Positions 49,932 to 57,215 of a stretch of 64,000 bases of DNA are shown here, one piece after another (within the stretch, counting starts at the first letter, position 1; every line of letters begins with the position of its first letter). Made by a program: the position numbers and the translations under genes. Under the pieces are notes generated by a model that saw only the letters and a program-made list of their open reading frames with translations, had not been told where the DNA came from and searched no databases. The stretch is taken from positions 4,716-68,715 of the forward strand of contig JANRKA010000084.1 of NCBI GenBank assembly GCA_033875325.1, written 5' to 3'. The DNA comes from Elusimicrobiota bacterium (GTDB lineage: Bacteria > Elusimicrobiota > Elusimicrobia > UBA1565 > UBA9628).

Positions 49932-50522
49932 ATGAACTTCGACCTCCTCGTTCTCGTCCTCGCGGCGTTGACGGCCGTCACCGGGTACCGCTCCGGCGCG
50001 GTGCGGCAGCTCTCTTCTTGGATCGGACTGGCGGCGGCTTATGTCTGCGCGCGGCCGCTGGCGGCGGCATGGGGGGAGGGGGCGGCGCGTTGGCTGGGGT
50101 GGGCGCCGGTCGTCGCGACCGTGGCGCTGAGCGCGACGCTGTGGGTGGTCCTCTACGTCGGGGCGAGCCAGGTGGCGCGGCTGGCGCTCAACCTGCTCGA
50201 GCCGGGCAAGGAGCGCGGCCCTCTCGACCAGGCGCTGGGCGCGGTCGCGGGCGCGGCCAAGGGCGCGGCCATCGTGCTCGCCGCGACCTCGGTGCTGGTC
50301 GCGTTGGAGAAGCCTTTGGCCGGCCTGGGCGTGGACATGACGCGGCGCACCGAGGGGTCGCGCGTGATGGCCTTCGTGCGCGAACACCCGCTGGTGGGGG
50401 AGCGCCGGCCGACGGCGGCCTCCGCCGTGGAGCAGGTCAAGGGCAAGGGCGCCGAGGCCGTCTCCAAGGTGAAGGGCGGCGCCGAGGCCGCCTTGAAGAC
50501 CGTCGCGCCCGCCGGGCGTTGA
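49932..50522 (+). CDS. CvpA family membrane protein
   Basis: The N-terminus MNFDLLVLVLAALTAVTGYRSGAVRQL and four TM helices fit the family. TAGAAT lies 7 nt upstream of the ATG. Confidence 0.7.
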   Translation: MNFDLLVLVLAALTAVTGYRSGAVRQLSSWIGLAAAYVCARPLAAAWGEGAARWLGWAPVVATVALSATLWVVLYVGASQVARLALNLLEPGKERGPLDQALGAVAGAAKGAAIVLAATSVLVALEKPLAGLGVDMTRRTEGSRVMAFVREHPLVGERRPTAASAVEQVKGKGAEAVSKVKGGAEAALKTVAPAGR

Positions 50523-50549
50523 GCCGGGCCGCGGCGTAGGACACGGGCC

Positions 50550-51155
50550 ATGCCCGAGCGCTGGAAACTCTTCGTCGCCGCGACCTTCGTCATCGCGGCG
50601 ACCCCGGGCCCCAACATGCTGCTGGTGATGACGACCAGCGTGCGCCATGGGCTGCGCCGCGCGTTGGTCACCATGGCGGGCCTGCTCACGGGGCTGAGCC
50701 TCATGCTCGTCGCCTCCGCCGCGGGGCTCGACGCGCTGCTGCGCGCCTCGCCGTCCTTGTTCGCGGCCCTGCGGCTGCTGGGCGCCGTGTATCTCGTTTA
50801 TCTGGGCGCGGCGCTGTGGCGCGCGCCTTCCGGGGCGGCGCCGGCCGCGGCCCCGCCGGCGCGGGCGGGGCTTTACCGCCAGGCCCTGCTCGTCTCGTTG
50901 AGCAACCCCAAGGCCATCCTCTTCGCGGCCGCCTTCCTGCCGCAGTTCGTGGACGCGGACAAGCCGCGCGGCCCGCAGTTCGCGGCGCTCGTGGCGCTGT
51001 TCGCCGTCATCGAGGTGACCTGTTACCTCGCCTACGCGTTGGGCGGGCGCCAGGCCGCGGCGTGGCTGGCGCGTCCCGCGACGCGGCTGTTCTTCGACCG
51101 CGCCGCCGGCGCGTTGTTCGTGGGCTTCGCGCTGCTGCTGCTCCTGGGGTCCTGA
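50550..51155 (+). CDS. LysE/RhtB family amino-acid exporter
   Basis: Blocks FVIAATPGPNMLLV and SNPKAILFAAAFLPQF are present, and the length is ~200 aa. Confidence 0.8.
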   Translation: MPERWKLFVAATFVIAATPGPNMLLVMTTSVRHGLRRALVTMAGLLTGLSLMLVASAAGLDALLRASPSLFAALRLLGAVYLVYLGAALWRAPSGAAPAAAPPARAGLYRQALLVSLSNPKAILFAAAFLPQFVDADKPRGPQFAALVALFAVIEVTCYLAYALGGRQAAAWLARPATRLFFDRAAGALFVGFALLLLLGS

Positions 51156-51156
51156 G

Positions 51157-52053
51157 TTGCATCCGCGCAACCGCCACCGGGGCCGCTACGACCTGGAGCG
51201 CCTGTGCCAGGGCTCGCCGGAGCTGCGCCCTTTCGTGCGGCCCAGCCCGGCCGGAGAGCCCACCGTGGACTTCGCCGACCCCGCGGCCGTCGCCGCGCTC
51301 AACCGCGCGCTGCTGCGGGAGTACTACGGCGTGCCGGACTGGCGCATCCCGCCCGGCTACCTGTGCCCGCCGGTACCCGGGCGCGCCGATTACATCCACC
51401 ACGCCGCGGACCTGCTCGCGGGCGCCGGGGAGGTCCCGCGCGGCGACGCCGTGCGCGTGCTCGACATGGGCGTGGGCGCCAACGCCATCTATCCCATCAT
51501 CGGACGCCGGGAGTACGGCTGGAGCTTCGTGGGCGTGGACGCGGACCCGGTCGCGCTGGAATCGGCCCGGGCCATCGTGGCCTCGACGCCCGGCCTGGAG
51601 GGCGGCGTCGAGCTGCGCCTGCAGCGCCGCGCCGCGCGCACGCTCGAAGGCGCGCTCGTCCCGGGCGAACGCTTCGACTTGACCGTGTGCAACCCGCCCT
51701 TCCACGCGTCGCCGGCCGAGGCGGACGCCGCGGCCCGGCGCAAGCGGCGCGGCCTCGGCCAGGCGGCGGACGCGCCGCGCAACTTCGCCGGCCGCGCCAC
51801 CGAGCTGTGTTTCCCGGGCGGGGAGGACGCGTTCATCCGCTCGCTCATCGAAGAGAGCGCGGCCGCCCCGCGCGCGGCGCTCTGGTTCACGAGCCTCGTG
51901 TCGAAGGCGGAGAACCTCGCCGACCTCGAGCGCGCGGCGCGCAAGGCGGGCGCCGTCGAGACGCGGGTCGTCCCGATGGGTCAGGGCCGCAAGGTCAGCC
52001 GTTTCCTGGCCTGGACCTTCGAGCGCCAAGAACTCCCGCCGGGCCACCGTTAA
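51157..52053 (+). CDS. rlmF: 23S rRNA (adenine-N6)-methyltransferase RlmF-like
   Basis: TTG start. Blocks HPRNRHRGRYD, LDMGVGANAIYP and VCNPPFHAS are present. Confidence 0.8.
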   Translation: MHPRNRHRGRYDLERLCQGSPELRPFVRPSPAGEPTVDFADPAAVAALNRALLREYYGVPDWRIPPGYLCPPVPGRADYIHHAADLLAGAGEVPRGDAVRVLDMGVGANAIYPIIGRREYGWSFVGVDADPVALESARAIVASTPGLEGGVELRLQRRAARTLEGALVPGERFDLTVCNPPFHASPAEADAAARRKRRGLGQAADAPRNFAGRATELCFPGGEDAFIRSLIEESAAAPRAALWFTSLVSKAENLADLERAARKAGAVETRVVPMGQGRKVSRFLAWTFERQELPPGHR

Positions 52054-52068
52054 AGGTACACTGGGCCA

Positions 52069-52100
52069 CCCCTTGGCCCGACGGGCCGAGGGGTTCGTCG
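52069..52100 (+). terminator. Probable intrinsic terminator
   Basis: An 11-bp stem ccccttggccc / gggccgagggg (one G-U pair) with loop gac is followed by ttcgtcgtt (a weak U-tract). Confidence 0.45.
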
Positions 52101-52141
52101 TTCAGGCGCACTGGGGGTCCCATGGACAAGATGGAGGCGAA

Positions 52142-52294
52142 ATGAAGGCGCATCTTTTCGAGTTCCGATCCGACACGCGCAAGCTCAAGTGCCTGTGCGG
52201 CTGGGAGCGCACGCTCAAGATCACGGACCCCGAAGCCGCGCGCGAGAAGTTCGAGGAGCACCGCGCCGAGGCGACGCGGCCCGAGCCGGACTGA
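52142..52294 (+). CDS. Small hypothetical protein (50 aa)
   Basis: ATG 52142 is preceded by ggaggcgaa. The composition is charged and non-shadow-like (MKAHLFEFRSDTRKLKCLCGWERTLK...). Confidence 0.4.
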   Translation: MKAHLFEFRSDTRKLKCLCGWERTLKITDPEAAREKFEEHRAEATRPEPD

Positions 52295-52355
52295 CGCCGG
52301 GTAACGCGCGACCTCGAGCGGAGAGAGCAGCCGCCGGCCGGGAGCCCGCGGGCCT

Positions 52356-54242
52356 CTAACGCGGCAGCGCCGCGTCCAGGGCCGAGGCAACGCGCGGGTC
52401 CACGGGCGCCGGGGCGGGGCGGCCGAGCCGGGCGGCCAGGCGCGACAGATAGGCCGCGGCGTGCGGGTCCGCGGCCGAAGTCAGCAGCAGTTCCCAGGCG
52501 CGCTCCGGGCGGCCGGCCGAGGCCTCGGCATGGGCCCAGAACAACTTCGCGGCGGGCAAGGCGGGCGAAGCGGCGTTGAGCGCGCGGTAGGCCGCGGCCG
52601 ACTCCTCCCAGCGGCGCAGCCACAACAGCGAGAAGGCCAGGTTCTGCCGCGCGTCGAGGTCGCCGGGGTCCAGGGCGAGGGCCTTCGCCGCGAACGCGGC
52701 GCCTTCGTCCCAGCGCCCGCGGCTCGTCGCGGCCCACGCGCGCTGCGACCACGGACGGGCGGAATCCGGCGCGAGTTCGGAGGCCAAACGCAGGCAGTCG
52801 TCCGCCTCGGACCAGGCGCCGTTGCGGCCGAAGGCCACGCCGAGGTTCAGGTAGCCGAAGGAGGCCCCCGGCTCGCCGCGCCCGGAGGCGGCCAATACGC
52901 GCAGCTCGTCGAGTCGTCCCGACGGCGCGCGCAGCGCTTCGATGGAGGCGCGCAGGACTTTCGTCAGCCACGAGGGGCGCAGGCGCTCGCTGTCGCGCGC
53001 GGCCGTCAGCGCGCGGTCCGGGTCGCCGCGCCGCAGCCAGGACGCGGCGCGTTCGGCCTCGAACTTCCAGCTGTAGGGCGGGTGGGAGTGGCGCTCCAGG
53101 AAGGCGTCGGGGTCGAGGCTCGCGCGGGCGTGCCCCAGGCTCGTCGTCGTCCACCACGCGCCGGCCGCGAGCAGCGCGCCGGAGAGGACCAGTCGCGGGC
53201 GCTCCGGCAGGCCGGGCGCGGCGCGCAGCAGGAGGAAGAGGAGGAAGGCGTAGGTGCCGACGGCCCGCACGGGCAGGACCTCGCCGTTGAGGAGGGTGGC
53301 GACCGCCAGCTCGGAGGCGCAGACGAGGAGGAGGCCCGTCCAGGCCAGGGCTTCGCGGCGGGAGCGCGCGGCGTAGACCGCGAAGGCCGCCGCCGCCGCC
53401 CACGCCGCGGCGTGCGGCGCCGCGGCGCCGGAGGGGACCATGCCGCCGTAGACTCGGAAGGAGCCCGTCACCGCGACGCGGAGGTACTCGGTGGCGGCGA
53501 CCGCGGCCTGCGGCAGCAGGGACCAGCGCCAGACGGTGGGGAAGGGAGGCGGGTCGTGGGCGAGCACGAGCCGGCGCTGGAGCAGGTAGAGGCCCGCGGC
53601 GGCGAAGGCCGCGAGCAGCGCGGCGAGCGTCGCGCGCGTCGGACGGGGGCGCAGCGCGAAGACGGCCAGCGCCAGGCCGAAGGGCAGCGCGACGGCGCTC
53701 TCGCGGGCCAGGCAGGCGACATAGACGCAGGCGGCGGCCGCGACGATGCCCGCGGCTCGACCGCCTTCGGCGGCGCGCACCCCGCGCCACGCGCCGTAGG
53801 ACGCGGGCAGGAGCAGCGCGCCGGTCGCCAGGAGCGGCGAGACGAAGAACCAGCTGTTGTAGGGGTGGACCAGCAGCAGCGCGGCTCCGCCCCAGGCCGC
53901 GGGCGGCGACGCGCCGGCTTCCAGCAGCGCCAAGGCGAGCGCGGCGGCGCAGAGCAGCCACAGCAGCCCCGCGGCCGCGCGGTAGGGGCGGGCGTCGCCG
54001 CAGCCCGCGGCGCGCGCCAGCAGGCCGAGGAACAGGTTCGCCAGAGGGCGGTAATACGCGCCGTCCTCGCCGACCGCGCGCGAGAGGAGGAGCGAGGAGA
54101 CCGGGGCCGAGGTCAGCCGGCTGCAATGCGACGGTATCTGCAGCGCGTCCTCGCGCACGAACGCGCGGCCGTGCGCGGCCCAGAGCAGCGCGGCGCCCAG
54201 GGCGGCGTAGGCCAGCGGCGCGGCGAAGCGAGAGGCGGTCAC
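52356..54242 (-). CDS. GT-C fold membrane glycosyltransferase-like protein with C-terminal TPR repeats (TMTC/PMT-like)
   Basis: GTG 54242 (GTGA overlap). There are about 11 TM helices, with an acidic first-loop motif FVREDALQI followed by YYRPLANL. The C-terminal ~230 aa are TPR-like repeats. Confidence 0.65.
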   Translation of the reverse strand: MTASRFAAPLAYAALGAALLWAAHGRAFVREDALQIPSHCSRLTSAPVSSLLLSRAVGEDGAYYRPLANLFLGLLARAAGCGDARPYRAAAGLLWLLCAAALALALLEAGASPPAAWGGAALLLVHPYNSWFFVSPLLATGALLLPASYGAWRGVRAAEGGRAAGIVAAAACVYVACLARESAVALPFGLALAVFALRPRPTRATLAALLAAFAAAGLYLLQRRLVLAHDPPPFPTVWRWSLLPQAAVAATEYLRVAVTGSFRVYGGMVPSGAAAPHAAAWAAAAAFAVYAARSRREALAWTGLLLVCASELAVATLLNGEVLPVRAVGTYAFLLFLLLRAAPGLPERPRLVLSGALLAAGAWWTTTSLGHARASLDPDAFLERHSHPPYSWKFEAERAASWLRRGDPDRALTAARDSERLRPSWLTKVLRASIEALRAPSGRLDELRVLAASGRGEPGASFGYLNLGVAFGRNGAWSEADDCLRLASELAPDSARPWSQRAWAATSRGRWDEGAAFAAKALALDPGDLDARQNLAFSLLWLRRWEESAAAYRALNAASPALPAAKLFWAHAEASAGRPERAWELLLTSAADPHAAAYLSRLAARLGRPAPAPVDPRVASALDAALPR

Positions 54243-55711
54243 GGCTCGATGAAGCGGGAGCGCTGCGCCGGGTCGGGGAGCCGGCACGCGTCGAAGCGGC
54301 CGAAGAGGCGGTAACGCGCGCCCGCGACGAGGTCGTAGCCGGCGTCGAGCAGCGGCGCGGGCAGGACCTCGAGCAGCGAGAGCAGCCGCCAGCCGGGGCC
54401 GAGGGCGGCGAACACGGCGAAGACGGCCTTCGCCTTGCGCAAGGGCGCGCCCGCGGCGTCGCGCACCAGGTAGACGGTGTCCAACGCCGCCGGGTCGAAG
54501 CCGTGCGGGCGCAGGGCGGCCGCGGCGAACGCGCCCTGCAGCGGCGCGAAGCGGAAGACGGCGTCGCGGTCGCGCTCCAGCACGAAGCGCACGAAGCGGT
54601 CGCAGAGCCCGCAGACCCCGTCGTAGAGGATGACGCCGCCTCCCGCGCGGCGCCGGGACAGGAGGCGGTCCCAGACCGCCTCCAGCGGGGGGAAATAGGC
54701 GAGCAGCAGCGCGACGACGATGAAGGGGCGCAGGCGCTTGTACGGGTGCATGACCATCAGCAGGGCGTAGAGCAGGACGGGGGTCATCCTCAGGGCGAGC
54801 TTGAGCGCGGCGGCGCCCTCGAAGCGGCGGCCGTCCATGACCACGGCCGACGGCGCGCGCGCGGGGCCCGCCTCGACGCGCCACAACCCGTCGAGGTCGC
54901 ACGCCTCGGCCAGGGCGGCCAGGCGCCGCATCGCGCCCGAGCCGGCGTCGTAAACGAGGCGCAGGGGCTCGCGCGGCCAGGCGACGAAGGCCAGCAGCGC
55001 GGCCGCCACGCCGTAGTAGAACTCGGCGAAGGTCGCGCCCCACAGGATGACCAGGATGCCGGAGTGGAGGGACAAGGTGAGCCACACGGTGAGCCGGTCC
55101 CAGCGCGGACGGCAGGCCAGGACGGCGATGGCGAACTCCGCGACGATGACGGACCAGGACATCAGCTTGGAGAGCAGCAGCGGGGGCAGCAGGGCCGCGA
55201 CGGCCATGTAGGGACCGTGCTGCACGCGGCGGGCGAACCAGTTCTCGAAGTACCGCCCGCTCCACCAGTCCGCGTCCAGCGCCTTGCTCAACCCGCAGCC
55301 GAAGTACACGAGCGCGAACTGCGCGCGCAGGAAGGCGGTCCCGGTCTCGGGCGTATAGAGGCCGAGCAGCAGGAACTGGAGGGCGAAGAAGGTCTTGCCG
55401 TTGGAGAAGAAGGCCTTGGACGCGAGGATGTTGAGCATCAGCGCCGCGCCGACGAGCAGGCAGGAGGCGCGCGCGCGGCGCGTGAGGAAGAGGCCCGCGG
55501 CCCCCGCCAGGAACGCGGCCTGGGTCGCGGGCGCGAACAGGCCGAGCCCGCGCAGGGCGTCGAAGGCGGGATGGAACGGCAGGAACGGGTCGCCGAAGGA
55601 CCCCGGCATGCGCTGCCACAGCAGGCTCAGCACCATGAGACGCGCGGCCAGGTGGAGGTTGCCGGGCAGGTCGCCGCCGCCCAGGCGCCACGCCGGGCTC
55701 AGCGGGGCCAT
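54239..55711 (-). CDS. HTTM (vitamin-K-carboxylase-like) membrane domain fused to two DCC-type thiol-disulfide oxidoreductase modules
   Basis: ATG 55711 (MAPLSPAW). The HTTM-like block is FLRAQFALVYFGCGLSKALDADWWSG. The first DCC-like module lacks cysteines (LVYDAGSGAMRRL), and the second is intact (ILYDGVCGLCDRFVRFV). Confidence 0.6.
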   Translation of the reverse strand: MAPLSPAWRLGGGDLPGNLHLAARLMVLSLLWQRMPGSFGDPFLPFHPAFDALRGLGLFAPATQAAFLAGAAGLFLTRRARASCLLVGAALMLNILASKAFFSNGKTFFALQFLLLGLYTPETGTAFLRAQFALVYFGCGLSKALDADWWSGRYFENWFARRVQHGPYMAVAALLPPLLLSKLMSWSVIVAEFAIAVLACRPRWDRLTVWLTLSLHSGILVILWGATFAEFYYGVAAALLAFVAWPREPLRLVYDAGSGAMRRLAALAEACDLDGLWRVEAGPARAPSAVVMDGRRFEGAAALKLALRMTPVLLYALLMVMHPYKRLRPFIVVALLLAYFPPLEAVWDRLLSRRRAGGGVILYDGVCGLCDRFVRFVLERDRDAVFRFAPLQGAFAAAALRPHGFDPAALDTVYLVRDAAGAPLRKAKAVFAVFAALGPGWRLLSLLEVLPAPLLDAGYDLVAGARYRLFGRFDACRLPDPAQRSRFIEP

Positions 55712-56067
55712 CGCCACTCCCGGACCGGGCCGCCGTTGACGTCGTAGCGCACGCGCACGCGCGCCCCGTCGCCGCGGCCGTAGGTCTCCTCGTACTGCCG
55801 GATCTTGTCGAGCACGTTGGCCGGCGAGCGTTGGTCCCAGCCGTGCGCGGGCAGGCGGTAACGCGCGAGCGCCTGTTCCGGCGTCAGGCGGCGGCCGCCG
55901 ACCGCGACCTCCACGCTGAAGCGCGTCTGGCGGTCGTAGGGCGACCAGCGGAAGTAGCGCAGCGGCGTGAAGAAGGAGTAGCCCAGGCACGCGAGCTGGG
56001 CGGCGAGGAGGGAGGCGGCGAGCAGCGGGCGGGGCGCGAGCGGCCAGGGGCGCGCCCCGGGCCTCAT
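55699..56067 (-). CDS. Small membrane-anchored or secreted hypothetical protein (122 aa)
   Basis: ATG 56067 (ATGA overlap with the aminotransferase gene). It has an N-terminal hydrophobic segment LLAASLLAAQLACLGY and overlaps the HTTM gene start by 13 nt. Confidence 0.55.
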   Translation of the reverse strand: MRPGARPWPLAPRPLLAASLLAAQLACLGYSFFTPLRYFRWSPYDRQTRFSVEVAVGGRRLTPEQALARYRLPAHGWDQRSPANVLDKIRQYEETYGRGDGARVRVRYDVNGGPVREWRWPR

Positions 56068-57215
56068 CGGCGGCGGCGCGTCTTGCGCGCGGAGAGCACT
56101 CCGGCGATGACCCTCTCCTGCTCGCGCTCGGTCAGGTTCGAGCCGCTGGGCAGGCACAACCCGCGCGCAAAGAGGTCCTCGCACACCGCGCCGCCGACCA
56201 TGCGGCGGCCCTTGAACACGGGCTGCAGGTGCATCGGCTTCCAGAGGGGGCGCGCCTCGACGTCGCGGGCGGCGAGCGCGAGGCGGACCTCCTCGCGCGA
56301 GGCGCCGAACGCCGCGGCGTCGAAGAGGACGCAGGTGAGCCAATGGGTCGAGAAGCAGTCCGGCGCCTCGGGCATGAAGGTCACGCCGGGCAGGCCGCCG
56401 AGGGCCTCGCGGTAGCGCGCGAAGACGCGGCGGCGCGCGGCCACGCGGCGGTCGAGCACCGCGAGCTGGCCCAGGCCGATGCCCGCGAGCACGTTGCTCA
56501 TGCGGTAGTTGAAGCCGATGTGGGAGTGCTGGTAGTGGGGGGCGTCGTCGCGCGCCTGCGTCGCCAGGAAACGCGCGTGGCGGGCCAGGCGGCCGTCGTC
56601 GGTGACGAGCATGCCGCCGCTGGAGGTGGTGATGATCTTGTTGCCGTTGAAGGAGAACACGCCCGCCCAGCCGAAGGTCCCGGCCGAGCGGCCGCGGTAG
56701 GTCGCGCCCAGCGCTTCGGCCGCGTCCTCGATGAGGGGCACCCCGTGGCGGCGGCAGGCCGCGGCGATGGGGCGGTAGTCGGCGCACTGGCCGTAGAGGT
56801 CCACCGCGATGACGGCGCGCGGCAGGCGCTTCTTCTTGGCCAGGCGGTCGAGCTCGGCGGCGAGCAGGGCCGGGTCCATGTTCCAGGTCGCTCGGTCGCT
56901 GTCGATGAACACCGGCACGCCGCCGTCGTAGGTGATGGCGTTGGCGGTCGCCGCGAAGGTGAACGAGGAACACAACACCTCTTCCCCGGGGCGCAGCTTC
57001 AGCGCGCGCAGCGAGAGGTGGAGGGCCGCCGTGCCGCTGGAGACGGCCACGGCGTGGCGCGCGCCGACGCGCGCGGCGAACGCCTTCTCGAAGGCGGCGA
57101 CGTGGGGGCCCAGCGGGCCGATCCAATTGGTGCGGAACGCCTCGCGGATGAACGCCATCTCGCGCCCGCTCAGATGCGGGGCCGACAGGAAGACATGGCC
57201 GCCCTTCTTGCTCAC
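56064..57215 (-). CDS. DegT/DnrJ/EryC1/StrS-family sugar aminotransferase (PLP)
   Basis: GTG 57215 has CATAAT 6 nt upstream. Blocks AVSSGTAALHL, DAAEALGA and the PLP-lysine region FSFNGNKIITTSSGG are present. Confidence 0.85.
   Translation of the reverse strand: MSKKGGHVFLSAPHLSGREMAFIREAFRTNWIGPLGPHVAAFEKAFAARVGARHAVAVSSGTAALHLSLRALKLRPGEEVLCSSFTFAATANAITYDGGVPVFIDSDRATWNMDPALLAAELDRLAKKKRLPRAVIAVDLYGQCADYRPIAAACRRHGVPLIEDAAEALGATYRGRSAGTFGWAGVFSFNGNKIITTSSGGMLVTDDGRLARHARFLATQARDDAPHYQHSHIGFNYRMSNVLAGIGLGQLAVLDRRVAARRRVFARYREALGGLPGVTFMPEAPDCFSTHWLTCVLFDAAAFGASREEVRLALAARDVEARPLWKPMHLQPVFKGRRMVGGAVCEDLFARGLCLPSGSNLTEREQERVIAGVLSARKTRRRR

What the first reader, a model, noticed from the sequence alone, without database searches (positions are those of the whole stretch)
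52356..57215. Tightly overlapped operon: sugar aminotransferase - small membrane protein - HTTM::DCC::DCC fusion - TMTC-like GT-C/TPR protein
Seen in the sequence:
- Four minus-strand genes are joined by ATGA (56064-56067), a 13-nt overlap (55699-55711) and GTGA (54239-54242).
- The 490-aa central protein has an HTTM-like polytopic domain (block LVYFGCGLSKALDADWWSG) followed by two DCC/DUF393-like modules. The first has lost its CxxC (SGAM). The second keeps CGLC.
- The last gene has about 11 TM helices with an acidic first-loop motif and YYRPL, as in TMTC/PMT-type GT-C enzymes, plus TPR repeats.

Established knowledge: the HTTM domain is the membrane core of the vertebrate vitamin-K-dependent carboxylase, which depends on a separate CxxC oxidoreductase (VKOR). 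The Bacillus HTTM protein SdpB is needed to mature the secreted SdpC peptide.

Inference: fusing HTTM to its own CxxC module suggests a self-contained quinone/thiol redox-coupled modification enzyme. The 122-aa signal-bearing protein encoded just upstream (55699-56067) is a candidate substrate or partner. The GT-C/TPR and aminotransferase genes suggest that the target is also glycosylated.
Basis: partly seen in the sequence, partly recalled or inferred. Interest (0 to 1): 0.65.

Follow-up and report, generated by a model that had tools for sequence, protein, structure and literature searches.

The report
Split vitamin-K-carboxylase-like membrane enzyme pair
Two overlapping genes encode a bacterial two-piece relative of the human blood-clotting vitamin K carboxylase, here with an extra thiol-redox domain on its cytoplasmic side; its target is unknown, and the sugar genes beside it are lineage-specific neighbours rather than conserved partners.

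Summary
The four minus-strand genes and their ATGA, 13-nt and GTGA junctions are real. The 490-aa protein is a true relative of the vitamin K-dependent carboxylase GGCX. A family profile matches solved GGCX structures at E 1.8e-14, and a confident model (pLDDT 87.7) finds only GGCX in the PDB. The quinol-activating residues are kept: K143, W149 and E192. After the membrane core come a cysteine-less DCC relic and an intact DCC domain (CGLC). By topology inference both lie in the cytoplasm.

The 122-aa protein belongs to an unannotated family. A member sits directly upstream of this HTTM clade in 80 of 89 genome loci, usually overlapping it, so it is most likely an obligate subunit rather than a substrate. 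Neither the aminotransferase nor the TPR membrane protein was found in any of those 89 loci. The four-gene unit is therefore confined to two genomes of one genus. About 60% of clade members have no CxxC, so thiol redox is not essential to the family. GT-C membership of the last gene is unproven.

Verdict: a new variant (double DCC, new partner family) of an uncharacterised but already noticed bacterial HTTM-DCC system.

The parts
56064..57215 (-). DegT/LegC-type PLP sugar aminotransferase (383 aa). First gene of the transcription unit. A lineage-specific neighbour of the core pair.
   Evidence: Pfam DegT_DnrJ_EryC1 4e-100. NCBIfam LegC family 1.6e-107, but below the equivalog cut-off. 90% identical orthologue in the same position in G009. 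Absent from 89 related loci.
55699..56067 (-). 122-aa signal-anchored protein: TM helix at residues 13-31, then a periplasmic alpha/beta domain of about 90 aa. Proposed second subunit of the enzyme. Belongs to an unannotated family.
   Evidence: No Pfam or NCBIfam hit. Homologue found in 80 of 89 loci, directly upstream and usually overlapping by 4-25 nt. Invariant Q24, R37, F39, W41, P43, D45, L61, R69, Y70, E93, W118. AF2 pLDDT 87.7. dN/dS 0.22 against G009. Same phyletic pattern as the HTTM gene.
54974..55711 (-). HTTM (GGCX-type) membrane core of the 490-aa protein, residues 1-246, eight TM helices. The catalytic-type Lys143 codon is at 55283-55285.
   Evidence: Family profile against GGCX structures, E 1.8e-14. 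Foldseek top 15 hits are all GGCX. K143 in 115/116, W149 in 116/116, E192 in 113/116, F231 in 100/116 family members. Helices from the AF2 model.
54656..54973 (-). Degenerate, cysteine-less DCC-like module (residues 247-352) with a two-helix hydrophobic hairpin. Predicted cytoplasmic.
   Evidence: Aligns with the intact DxxCxxC DCC of P0007 and P0008. Cys-less in about two thirds of the family. Model pLDDT above 90.
54239..54655 (-). Intact DCC1-like thiol-disulfide module (residues 353-490; CGLC codons at 54602-54613) plus the stop codon. Predicted cytoplasmic. Acquired by fusion, not by tandem duplication.
   Evidence: Pfam DCC1-like 1.3e-25. 51% identical to the DCC of P0009 and P0010, with no BLAST similarity to the first module. 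Double-DCC architecture seen only in P0003, P0005 and P0006.
52356..54242 (-). 628-aa polytopic membrane protein with C-terminal TPR repeats (about residues 463-560). Possibly a very divergent TMTC/PMT_2-like GT-C. A lineage-specific neighbour.
   Evidence: TPR_2 1.9e-10. No GT-C family hit. hhalign against TMTC-like proteins gives E 0.0016-0.008, colinear through the 'FVRED', 'YYRPL' and 'HPYN' motifs. Homologues only in G000 and G009 of 41 genomes. Not adjacent to the HTTM gene in L001, L016 or L017.

Best explanation
The functional unit is the overlapping gene pair 55699-56067 and 54239-55711. Together the two proteins rebuild the architecture of the vitamin K-dependent carboxylase GGCX in two chains.

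Shown:
- The 490-aa protein supplies an eight-helix HTTM core.
- It keeps GGCX's quinol-deprotonating set: Lys143 = K218, Trp149 = W223, Glu192 = D263, Phe231 = F299.
- The 122-aa protein is its near-universal, translationally coupled genomic partner.

Inferred:
- The partner's N-in anchor helix takes the place of GGCX TM9, and its 90-aa domain caps the periplasm-facing active site.
- The enzyme uses reduced membrane quinone plus O2 to make a strong base. That base deprotonates, and probably carboxylates, a periplasmic or envelope substrate that is still unknown.
- Both DCC modules hang on the cytoplasmic face. The first is a cysteine-less structural relic, which is the common state of the clade. 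The second, with CGLC, is a lineage-specific addition that could feed cytoplasmic reducing equivalents back to the oxidised quinone or quinone epoxide, or could sense redox state.
- The aminotransferase and the TPR membrane protein are co-transcribed here, but they are accessory neighbours found only in this genus and are not part of the conserved machine.
For: - Homology to GGCX: profile E 1.8e-14 with the catalytic-Lys motif aligned; Foldseek finds only GGCX, probability 1.00; Pfam HTTM in 61 of 116 family members.
- Active-site columns are nearly invariant. Residue roles are taken from PMC12647623.
- Partner: found in 80 of 89 loci, upstream on the same strand in 72 of 79, typical overlap 4-25 nt. 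Its presence/absence pattern across 41 genomes is identical to the HTTM gene's. Confident TM-plus-domain model. dN/dS 0.22.
- Topology: GGCX has nine TM helices with a cytosolic N-terminus and a lumenal Lys218. P0003 aligns to TM2-TM8 and has eight helices, with positive residues in the predicted cytoplasmic loops.
- Literature analogue: a DUF5819 anchored protein plus an HTTM-DCC1 protein is predicted by AF3 to mimic whole GGCX, and MloH is the fused version (preprint 10.64898/2026.08.19.745780).
- Other HTTM-DCC subtypes also carry an overlapping small anchored upstream gene (P0011 type).
- The genome encodes two heme-copper oxidases, so the organism meets O2 and has a respiratory chain.
Against: - No complex was modelled, so the pairing rests on genomic association.
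- The partner's fold gave no significant PDB match (best E 0.086, not GGCX).
- Profile comparisons of the partner with the GGCX lumenal segment, LMF1_C and the P0011 family are colinear at best and not significant (E 0.2, 0.036 and 0.24).
- The GGCX His160 position is Arg or Lys in this family, so the second half-reaction may differ from Glu carboxylation.
- MenA and MenG/UbiE were not found above cut-off in a genome estimated 92% complete.
- 47 of 76 clade members lack CxxC, so any redox role for DCC is optional.
- No substrate candidate is conserved next to the pair.
- The G009 orthologue reads in two frames, and the G006 partner lacks its anchor. The system may therefore be decaying in this genus.
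Confidence: 0.5

Rival explanations
1. Glycan- or glycoprotein-directed pathway. All four genes act on one target: the aminotransferase makes an amino sugar, the TPR membrane protein (a GT-C) transfers it in the periplasm, and the GGCX-like pair chemically modifies the sugar or the glycosylated acceptor.
For: - The four genes are translationally coupled here.
- DegT sits beside the pair in all three genus members that have it. In G006 it is a different paralogue (36% identity), inside a Polysacc_synt_2 / Bac_transf / GT2 / ATP-grasp locus.
- The TPR membrane protein occurs only in two of the three genomes that carry the pair, out of 41 searched.
- An EPS locus lies about 6 kb away, according to earlier notes.
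- Earlier unchecked notes report other HTTM-DCC clades inside amino-sugar loci.
Against: - DegT and P0004-like genes were found in 0 of 89 loci of this clade.
- At 50% identity the pair is flanked by unrelated genes.
- The P0004 homologue P0016 has no HTTM neighbour.
- In G009 a helicase gene and RlmF separate P0004 from the pair.
- GT-C membership of P0004 is unproven.
- In G006 the pair is on the opposite strand to the glycan genes.
Confidence: 0.15
2. Thiol:quinone electron conduit, similar in logic to DsbB, VKOR-Trx, DoxX or MauE. The HTTM/DoxX-like membrane domain only binds quinone and passes electrons between it and the CxxC of the DCC domain. No carboxylase-type chemistry takes place.
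For: - Family members also give weak hits to MauE (29 of 116) and DoxX (7 of 116).
- DCC is a thioredoxin-like CxxC family (Pfam PF04134).
- The same genome carries a second fusion of DCC to an HTTM-superfamily domain (DCC1-LMF1).
- DCC is also fused to GT87.
Against: - About 60% of the clade has no cysteine pair, yet it keeps K143, W149 and E192 almost invariantly.
- Those residues are the GGCX quinol-deprotonation set, not a disulfide relay.
- The only structural neighbours found are GGCX.
- An obligate periplasmic partner domain has no role in a simple conduit.
Confidence: 0.12
3. SdpAB-like peptide maturation system in which the 122-aa protein is the substrate or precursor that the HTTM protein processes.
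For: - Weak SdpB family hit (TIGR04033, 2.3e-5).
- In B. subtilis, SdpA and SdpB are needed to process SdpC (PMC6818787).
- The small protein is exported or anchored, and it has invariant acidic residues (E93, D45).
Against: - The small protein has a conserved helix with an invariant Gln instead of a cleavable signal. It has a compact, confidently folded domain and 11 invariant residues spread along the chain.
- It has no hypervariable core or leader-core layout.
- In the sdp system the gene upstream of the HTTM gene (SdpA) is a helper, not the substrate.
- No third, SdpC-like gene is conserved near the pair.
Confidence: 0.08
4. A decaying accessory island with no current function in this lineage.
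For: - Present in only 3 of 25 genus genomes and 12 of 301 phylum genomes.
- The G009 orthologue is split over two frames.
- The G006 partner lacks its anchor in two independent assemblies, and the G006 HTTM protein lacks the second DCC.
Against: - In the window all four frames are intact with coupled junctions.
- dN/dS is 0.22 for the small gene.
- All catalytic-type residues are retained.
- The G009 frameshift may be a sequencing error.
Confidence: 0.1

Closest known systems
[quoted passage not shown]
   Same: - HTTM membrane fold.
- K218 / W223 / D263 / F299 equivalents conserved as K143 / W149 / E192 / F231.
- Active site at the outer (lumenal or periplasmic) membrane face.
   Different: - GGCX is one 758-aa chain with nine TM helices and a two-clamp lumenal domain of about 350 aa.
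- Here there are eight TM helices, plus a separate 122-aa anchored protein whose domain shows no detectable similarity to the clamps.
- The His160 position is Lys.
- Two cytoplasmic DCC modules are appended.
- The substrate is unknown.
DUF5819 protein + HTTM-DCC1 protein pair (Melghirimyces thermohalophilus; AF3 prediction in bioRxiv 10.64898/2026.08.19.745780)
   Same: - Adjacent genes.
- A small protein with an N-terminal TM helix and an extracytoplasmic domain, next to a membrane protein with HTTM followed by a DCC1-like domain.
- The preprint proposes that they rebuild GGCX.
   Different: - The partner here is not DUF5819: no hit in the protein or anywhere in the genome. It is also shorter (about 90 aa against 169 profile positions).
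- The enzyme here has two DCC modules, and the first has lost its cysteines.
MloH, malonomycin aspartyl carboxylase of Streptomyces (Law et al. 2018, as cited in PMC12647623 and the preprint)
   Same: The only bacterial HTTM enzyme with a demonstrated carboxylase activity. It shows that the chemistry exists in bacteria.
   Different: - MloH is a single fused chain inside a PKS-NRPS cluster and acts on a small-molecule intermediate.
- There is no natural-product cluster here.
- I did not compare the sequences directly.
B. subtilis SdpA/SdpB (and YitP/YitO)
   Same: An HTTM-family membrane protein with a helper gene immediately upstream. Both are needed to mature a secreted product. Weak TIGR04033 hit.
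   Different: - The score is far below the family cut-off (24 against 178 bits).
- There is no SdpC-like third gene.
- SdpB has no DCC domain.
LMF1 (lipase maturation factor) and the DCC1-LMF1-LMF1_C fusion in this same genome
   Same: Same superfamily of membrane domains, and a recurrent fusion with DCC.
   Different: - Different subfamily.
- In the fusion the DCC is N-terminal and the lumenal domain is fused rather than split off.
TMTC / PMT_2-type GT-C glycosyltransferases with TPR domains
   Same: For the last gene only:
- N-terminal polytopic domain plus C-terminal TPR.
- 'FVRED' resembles 'FxWDD', 'YYRPL' resembles 'QYYPL', and 'HPYN' resembles 'HPVxVES'. These motifs are colinear.
   Different: - Not detected by Pfam, by PDB sequence search, or by an HMM that finds about ten canonical paralogues in the same genome.
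- Similarity is weak (E 0.002-0.008).

Membership tests
HTTM / GGCX superfamily (Pfam PF05090) | Sequence match to the family model above the curated threshold | tested here: inconclusive
   P0003 alone scores 21.7 bits against a 27.7 cut-off. Full-length relatives P0007, P0008 and P0010 pass (30.6-36.4 bits). 61 of 116 family members match at E <= 0.01.
HTTM / GGCX superfamily (Pfam PF05090) | Homology to GGCX across the membrane core | tested here: met
   Family profile against PDB GGCX chains: E 1.8e-14, profile positions 53-259 aligned to native GGCX residues 101-321.
HTTM / GGCX superfamily (Pfam PF05090) | GGCX-type fold | tested here: met
   AF2 pLDDT 87.7, pTM 0.80. The top 15 Foldseek PDB hits are all GGCX, probability 1.00. 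The core aligns over about 265 columns at rmsd 5.7-6.1 A, and overall TM-scores are low (about 0.35) because GGCX is larger.
Vitamin K-dependent carboxylase (functional class) | Catalytic Lys218 with Trp223 and Asp263 | tested here: met
   K143 in 115/116, W149 in 116/116, E192 in 113/116 family members. All three are present in P0003. Residue roles from PMC12647623.
Vitamin K-dependent carboxylase (functional class) | His160 and the CO2-stacking Phe299 of the carboxylation half-site | tested here: inconclusive
   F231 (= F299) is kept in 100/116. The His160 column is Arg or Lys (61/116), and Lys106 in P0003.
Vitamin K-dependent carboxylase (functional class) | Lumenal clamp domain that binds the substrate | tested here: not met
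   There is no such domain in P0003. The P0002 domain shows no significant similarity to it (Foldseek best E 0.086 to unrelated proteins, hhalign E 0.2-0.28).
Vitamin K-dependent carboxylase (functional class) | Quinol- and O2-dependent epoxidation and carboxylation activity | not testable with these tools
   This is biochemistry. The genome has two COX1 genes, but MenA and MenG are not above cut-off.
DCC1-like thiol-disulfide oxidoreductase (PF04134) | Family model match and DxxCxxC motif (second module) | tested here: met
   E 1.3e-25, 91.3 bits, profile positions 1-113 of 113; 'YDGVCGLCDR'.
DCC1-like thiol-disulfide oxidoreductase (PF04134) | Family model match and DxxCxxC motif (first module) | tested here: not met
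   No Pfam hit, and 'YDAGSGAM' has no cysteine. It is homologous by alignment to the intact DCC of P0007 and P0008. It is therefore a derived, inactive member.
DUF5819 (PF19136) / SdpA partner families | Sequence match of the small upstream protein | tested here: not met
   No hit for P0002 at E <= 1, none in the whole genome, and none for 36 family members at E <= 10.
GT-C glycosyltransferase (TMTC / PMT_2 type) | Match to a GT-C family model or solved GT-C structure | tested here: not met
   The Pfam N-terminal scan at E <= 10 gave nothing relevant. The PDB profile search found TPR hits only. The TMTC-like HMM finds about ten paralogues in the genome but not this gene.
GT-C glycosyltransferase (TMTC / PMT_2 type) | Acidic motif in the first outer loop and colinear conserved motifs | tested here: inconclusive
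   E31-D32 and YYRPL are invariant in 3 homologues. hhalign gives E 0.0016 (probability 16%) and E 0.0078 (probability 5%), colinear over about 200 residues.
GT-C glycosyltransferase (TMTC / PMT_2 type) | GT-C fold | not tested
DegT/DnrJ/EryC1 sugar aminotransferase | Family model match | tested here: met
   PF01041, 4.1e-100, full length. The LegC family model scores 359.5 bits, below its 420 equivalog cut-off, so the substrate is not assigned.

The most novel reading that the evidence does not exclude
In this lineage a two-chain GGCX-type enzyme has acquired its own cytoplasmic CxxC recycling domain, which would amount to a vitamin K cycle in one complex. It has also been wired into an operon with an amino-sugar aminotransferase and a divergent GT-C/TPR transferase. 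On this reading, quinol/O2-driven strong-base chemistry (carboxylation or a related C-H activation) is applied to a surface glycan or glycoprotein. That substrate class has never been shown for the vitamin K carboxylase superfamily.
Probability: 0.12. Interest if true: 0.85.

Novelty: new variant of a known kind. Interest (0 to 1): 0.55.

Why it matters
Bacterial relatives of the vitamin K carboxylase number in the thousands. This one family has 748 representatives of 50%-identity clusters at E <= 1e-30. Only one bacterial relative, MloH, has a known reaction, and none has a known protein or glycan target.

This locus adds three things:
- A previously unannotated family of small anchored proteins that is an almost obligatory partner of one large HTTM clade. 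Any biochemical reconstitution should include it.
- Evidence that the DCC-like module fused to this clade is usually cysteine-less, which argues against a universal thiol-redox coupling.
- A rare architecture in which an intact DCC was added back. It offers a natural experiment on what DCC does for the enzyme.

The results also show that operon neighbours in a single genome (the aminotransferase and the TPR protein) can be misleading.

Tried and rejected
- The search for related loci with alignments A1, A3 and A6 failed because no conserved stretch was available. I replaced it with a degenerate DNA pattern for 'YFGxGLxKxLDxDWxSG'.
- P0002 as a DUF5819, SdpA, LMF1_C or GGCX lumenal-domain homologue was not supported. 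Tests: Pfam and NCBIfam on single sequences and on 36 members; PDB profile search; hhalign against GGCX 362-608, LMF1_C and the P0011 family; Foldseek of a confident model. All results were non-significant. The local motif 'RYFRWSPYD' against LMF1_C 'RRFRWKPSD' (E 0.036) is kept as a lead only.
- The first and second DCC modules as tandem duplicates: rejected. They show no BLAST similarity to each other, and the second is 51% identical to the DCCs of other architectures.
- Defining island boundaries from synteny around the ABC-F gene in other genus members: uninformative, because synteny is broken.
- Promoter and terminator scan inside the operon: nothing above chance.
- One genome search with the P0004 N-terminus failed on the server and was repeated with the whole protein.
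- P0002 as a lipoprotein: rejected. 'QLAC' is not a lipobox, and the Cys is not conserved.

Full report
**Observation**

The region holds four minus-strand genes:
- 56064-57215, 383 aa
- 55699-56067, 122 aa
- 54239-55711, 490 aa
- 52356-54242, 628 aa

The unit is bounded by a divergent ABC-F gene and a convergent RlmF gene. A consensus scan found no internal promoter or terminator above chance.

**Gene 1**

It is a DegT/DnrJ/EryC1 aminotransferase (Pfam 4e-100). Its best named match is the LegC family, below that model's equivalog cut-off, so the sugar substrate is not assigned.

**Gene 3, membership**

On its own, P0003 gives a solid C-terminal DCC1-like domain (1.3e-25, residues 361-472, CGLC) and only a sub-threshold HTTM hit of 21.7 bits. 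The word-index search found six relatives. An exhaustive profile search found 16,392 proteins at E <= 1e-3 and 748 at E <= 1e-30. Most of these are 350-400 aa long and cover the membrane domain plus one following module.

A 116-sequence alignment (A3) gave three results:
- It matches Pfam HTTM in 61 members. Weaker hits go to the related MauE, DoxX and LMF1 families.
- It hits the solved GGCX structures at E 1.8e-14. The family's 'YFGAGLNKLLDPDW' aligns with GGCX 'YFIAGVKKLDADW', which contains the catalytic Lys218.
- It supports an AlphaFold2 model of P0003 with pLDDT 87.7 and pTM 0.80. The top 15 PDB neighbours of that model are all GGCX, with probability 1.00.

I used the residue roles described for human GGCX (PMC12647623) to check the active site. 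K143 (= K218) is present in 115 of 116 members, W149 (= W223) in 116 of 116, E192 (= D263) in 113 of 116 and F231 (= F299) in 100 of 116. The His160 position is Arg or Lys in the family. The quinol-deprotonation site is therefore intact. The carboxylation half-site is only partly comparable.

**Gene 3, the two DCC modules**

The stretch 'LVYDAGSGAMRR...' matches no Pfam model and shows no BLAST similarity to the C-terminal DCC. In the alignment with P0007 and P0008 it lies exactly on their intact 'YDGDCGFC' DCC domain, which Pfam does recognise.

About two thirds of the A3 members lack the cysteine pair, as do 47 of 76 full-length genes from genomes. The second DCC is 51% identical to the DCCs of other architectures, such as the HTTM-DCC protein P0010 and the GT87-DCC protein P0009. 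I found the HTTM::dead-DCC::DCC arrangement only in P0003, P0005 and P0006. It is a fusion, not a tandem duplication.

**Topology (inference)**

GGCX has nine TM helices, a cytosolic N-terminus and Lys218 at the lumenal face. The family profile aligns to native GGCX residues 101-321. The model has eight helices in the HTTM part, with K143 at the outer end of the fifth helix and Arg-rich short loops on the predicted inner side. The chain therefore leaves the HTTM core on the cytoplasmic side. After the dead DCC, two further hydrophobic helices form a hairpin and return the chain to the same side. Both DCC modules should therefore be cytoplasmic, opposite the active site.

**Gene 2**

P0002 has no Pfam or NCBIfam match. 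It is not DUF5819, and there is no hit to that family anywhere in the genome. It is nevertheless a real, conserved protein. Its orthologue in genome G009 is 84% identical, with dN/dS 0.22, similar to 0.17 for the aminotransferase.

To survey neighbourhoods I scanned 185,579 species genomes with a degenerate DNA pattern for the active-site motif. This returned 89 loci, mostly Acidobacteriota, with a few Omnitrophota, Nitrospirales and Ktedonobacterales.
- A P0002 homologue is present in 80 of the 89. Six of the nine exceptions are cut off at the locus edge.
- It lies on the same strand directly upstream in 72 of 79, typically overlapping the HTTM start by 4-25 nt.
- Among 41 related genomes, P0002 and full-length P0003 homologues occur in exactly the same three: G000, G009 and G006.

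A 36-sequence alignment shows 11 invariant residues: Q24, R37, F39, W41, P43, D45, L61, R69, Y70, E93 and W118. Q24 lies inside the N-terminal helix. That fits an uncleaved membrane anchor better than a signal peptide. The model (pLDDT 87.7) shows a TM helix at residues 13-31 and a compact alpha/beta domain.

Other HTTM-DCC subtypes have their own small anchored upstream genes. One is the 183-aa P0011 family in L002, L031, L032 and L034. Another is DUF5819 in the literature. A 2026 preprint predicts with AF3 that a DUF5819 protein plus an HTTM-DCC1 protein reproduce the whole GGCX architecture, with the small protein's helix in the place of a GGCX TM helix, and it notes that MloH is the fused form. 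By analogy and by topology, eight helices plus one make nine, so P0002 is best read as the second subunit.

I could not show homology of its domain to the GGCX lumenal domain, to LMF1_C or to the P0011 family. hhalign gave E values of 0.2-0.28, 0.036 and 0.24, and Foldseek found no significant hit. That part remains inference.

**Genes 1 and 4 as partners**

None of the 89 loci contains a DegT or a P0004-like gene.
- At 50% identity (P0006, locus L016) the pair is intact with a 16-nt overlap, but it is flanked by unrelated genes.
- The 51%-identical P0004 homologue P0016 has no HTTM neighbour.
- In the nearest relative, G009 (71% identical), DegT, P0002 and P0003 are syntenic. The P0004 orthologue lies about 3 kb away, beyond a DEAD-box helicase gene and RlmF.

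There is some evidence in favour of a local link.
- P0004 homologues exist only in G000 and G009 among 41 genomes.
- In G006 the pair sits inside a different glycan locus with another DegT paralogue.
- Earlier unchecked notes of this scan report other HTTM-DCC clades in amino-sugar loci.

I therefore keep a glycan-directed reading as a minority hypothesis.

**Gene 4**

The TPR repeats are clear. The N-terminal 430 residues are polytopic and carry 'FVRED' and 'YYRPL', which are invariant in three homologues. They match no Pfam model, no PDB sequence, and not the HMM built from bona fide TMTC/PMT_2-like TPR proteins. That HMM finds about ten paralogues elsewhere in this genome. Profile-profile alignment is colinear through the motifs but weak, at E 0.0016 and 0.0078. 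GT-C membership is unproven.

**Context for the chemistry**

The genome encodes two heme-copper oxidase subunit I genes. This implies exposure to O2 and a respiratory chain. MenA and MenG/UbiE were not found above their cut-offs, so the quinone type is unknown.

**Caveats on function in this genus**

The G009 orthologue of P0003 reads in two frames, which could be a sequencing error or a pseudogene. In G006 the partner lacks its anchor in two independent assemblies, and the HTTM protein lacks the second DCC. The family is present in only 12 of 301 genomes of the phylum. That patchy distribution, together with the predominance of Acidobacteriota among the motif-scan loci, suggests horizontal acquisition; I ran no test of this.

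**Verdict**

The interpretation needs three corrections:
- The conserved machine is a two-gene pair, not four genes.
- The small protein is a subunit, not a substrate.
- The CxxC is optional and cytoplasmic.

HTTM-DCC fusions with a small anchored partner were already noted in Pfam architectures and in one 2026 preprint, and their function is unknown. This locus is a new variant, with a double DCC and an unannotated partner family.

Noticed in passing
Own genome, contig C127, about 50505-52488 (locus L037:5506-7488); outside the window: A second fusion of DCC to an HTTM-superfamily domain in the same genome: N-terminal DCC1-like domain (DGECGFC), then LMF1, then LMF1_C (Pfam 2.5e-12, 3.5e-49, 4.1e-45). 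The recurrent pairing of DCC with this membrane superfamily, in a different domain order, argues for a functional link.
   Followed up: partly
Own genome, contigs C40, C202, C21 (three copies), C51, C12 (two copies), C87, C57: About ten canonical TMTC/PMT_2-like membrane-plus-TPR paralogues (E 1e-117 to 1e-10 against a TMTC-like HMM). This is an unusually large family for a 3.6-Mb genome. P0004 is not among the hits.
   Followed up: no
L002:7462-10128; L034:4769-7230: The P0010-type HTTM-DCC gene has its own 155-183-aa anchored upstream partner (P0011 family, no Pfam hit) and is associated with a FA_hydroxylase (di-iron membrane oxygenase) gene. In L034 the hydroxylase and the partner lie in one open frame.
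   Followed up: partly
Loci L043-L131 (Acidobacteriota and others): Sub-lineage neighbours of the pair:
- a roughly 490-aa protein with an N-terminal response-regulator receiver domain, directly upstream on the same strand, in 18 loci;
- an OMP_b-brl_4 / CarboxypepD_reg outer-membrane barrel downstream in 15 loci, also next to P0033 and P0007.
No neighbour other than the P0002 family was found in more than 18 of the 89 loci.
   Followed up: partly
Proteins P0009 and P0046 (from database searches): DCC also occurs fused to the C-terminus of a GT87 (GT-C) membrane glycosyltransferase (P0009). One family member carries HTTM-like + DCC + an alpha/beta-hydrolase domain (P0046, 727 aa).
   Followed up: no
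L039:3765-5083 (G006) and L040: In genome G006 the pair lies on the opposite strand inside a glycan locus (Polysacc_synt_2, Bac_transf, DegT, GT2, ATP-grasp_3, beta-helix). The partner is called as 83 aa without its anchor helix in two independent assemblies, and the HTTM protein (360 aa) lacks the second DCC. A 67%-identical DCC segment sits on another contig (G006:C167).
   Followed up: partly
L001:7733-9203 (G009): The closest orthologue of the 490-aa protein (71-78% identical) is split between two reading frames near residue 80. This is either a frameshift pseudogene or an assembly indel.
   Followed up: no
window 55957-55983 (P0002 residues 37-45) compared with the LMF1_C domain of the C127 protein: The invariant partner motif R-Y-F-x-W-x-P-x-D resembles 'RRFRWKPSD' of LMF1_C. 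hhalign gives E 0.036, which is not significant. This may hint that the partner derives from the lumenal domain of the superfamily.
   Followed up: partly
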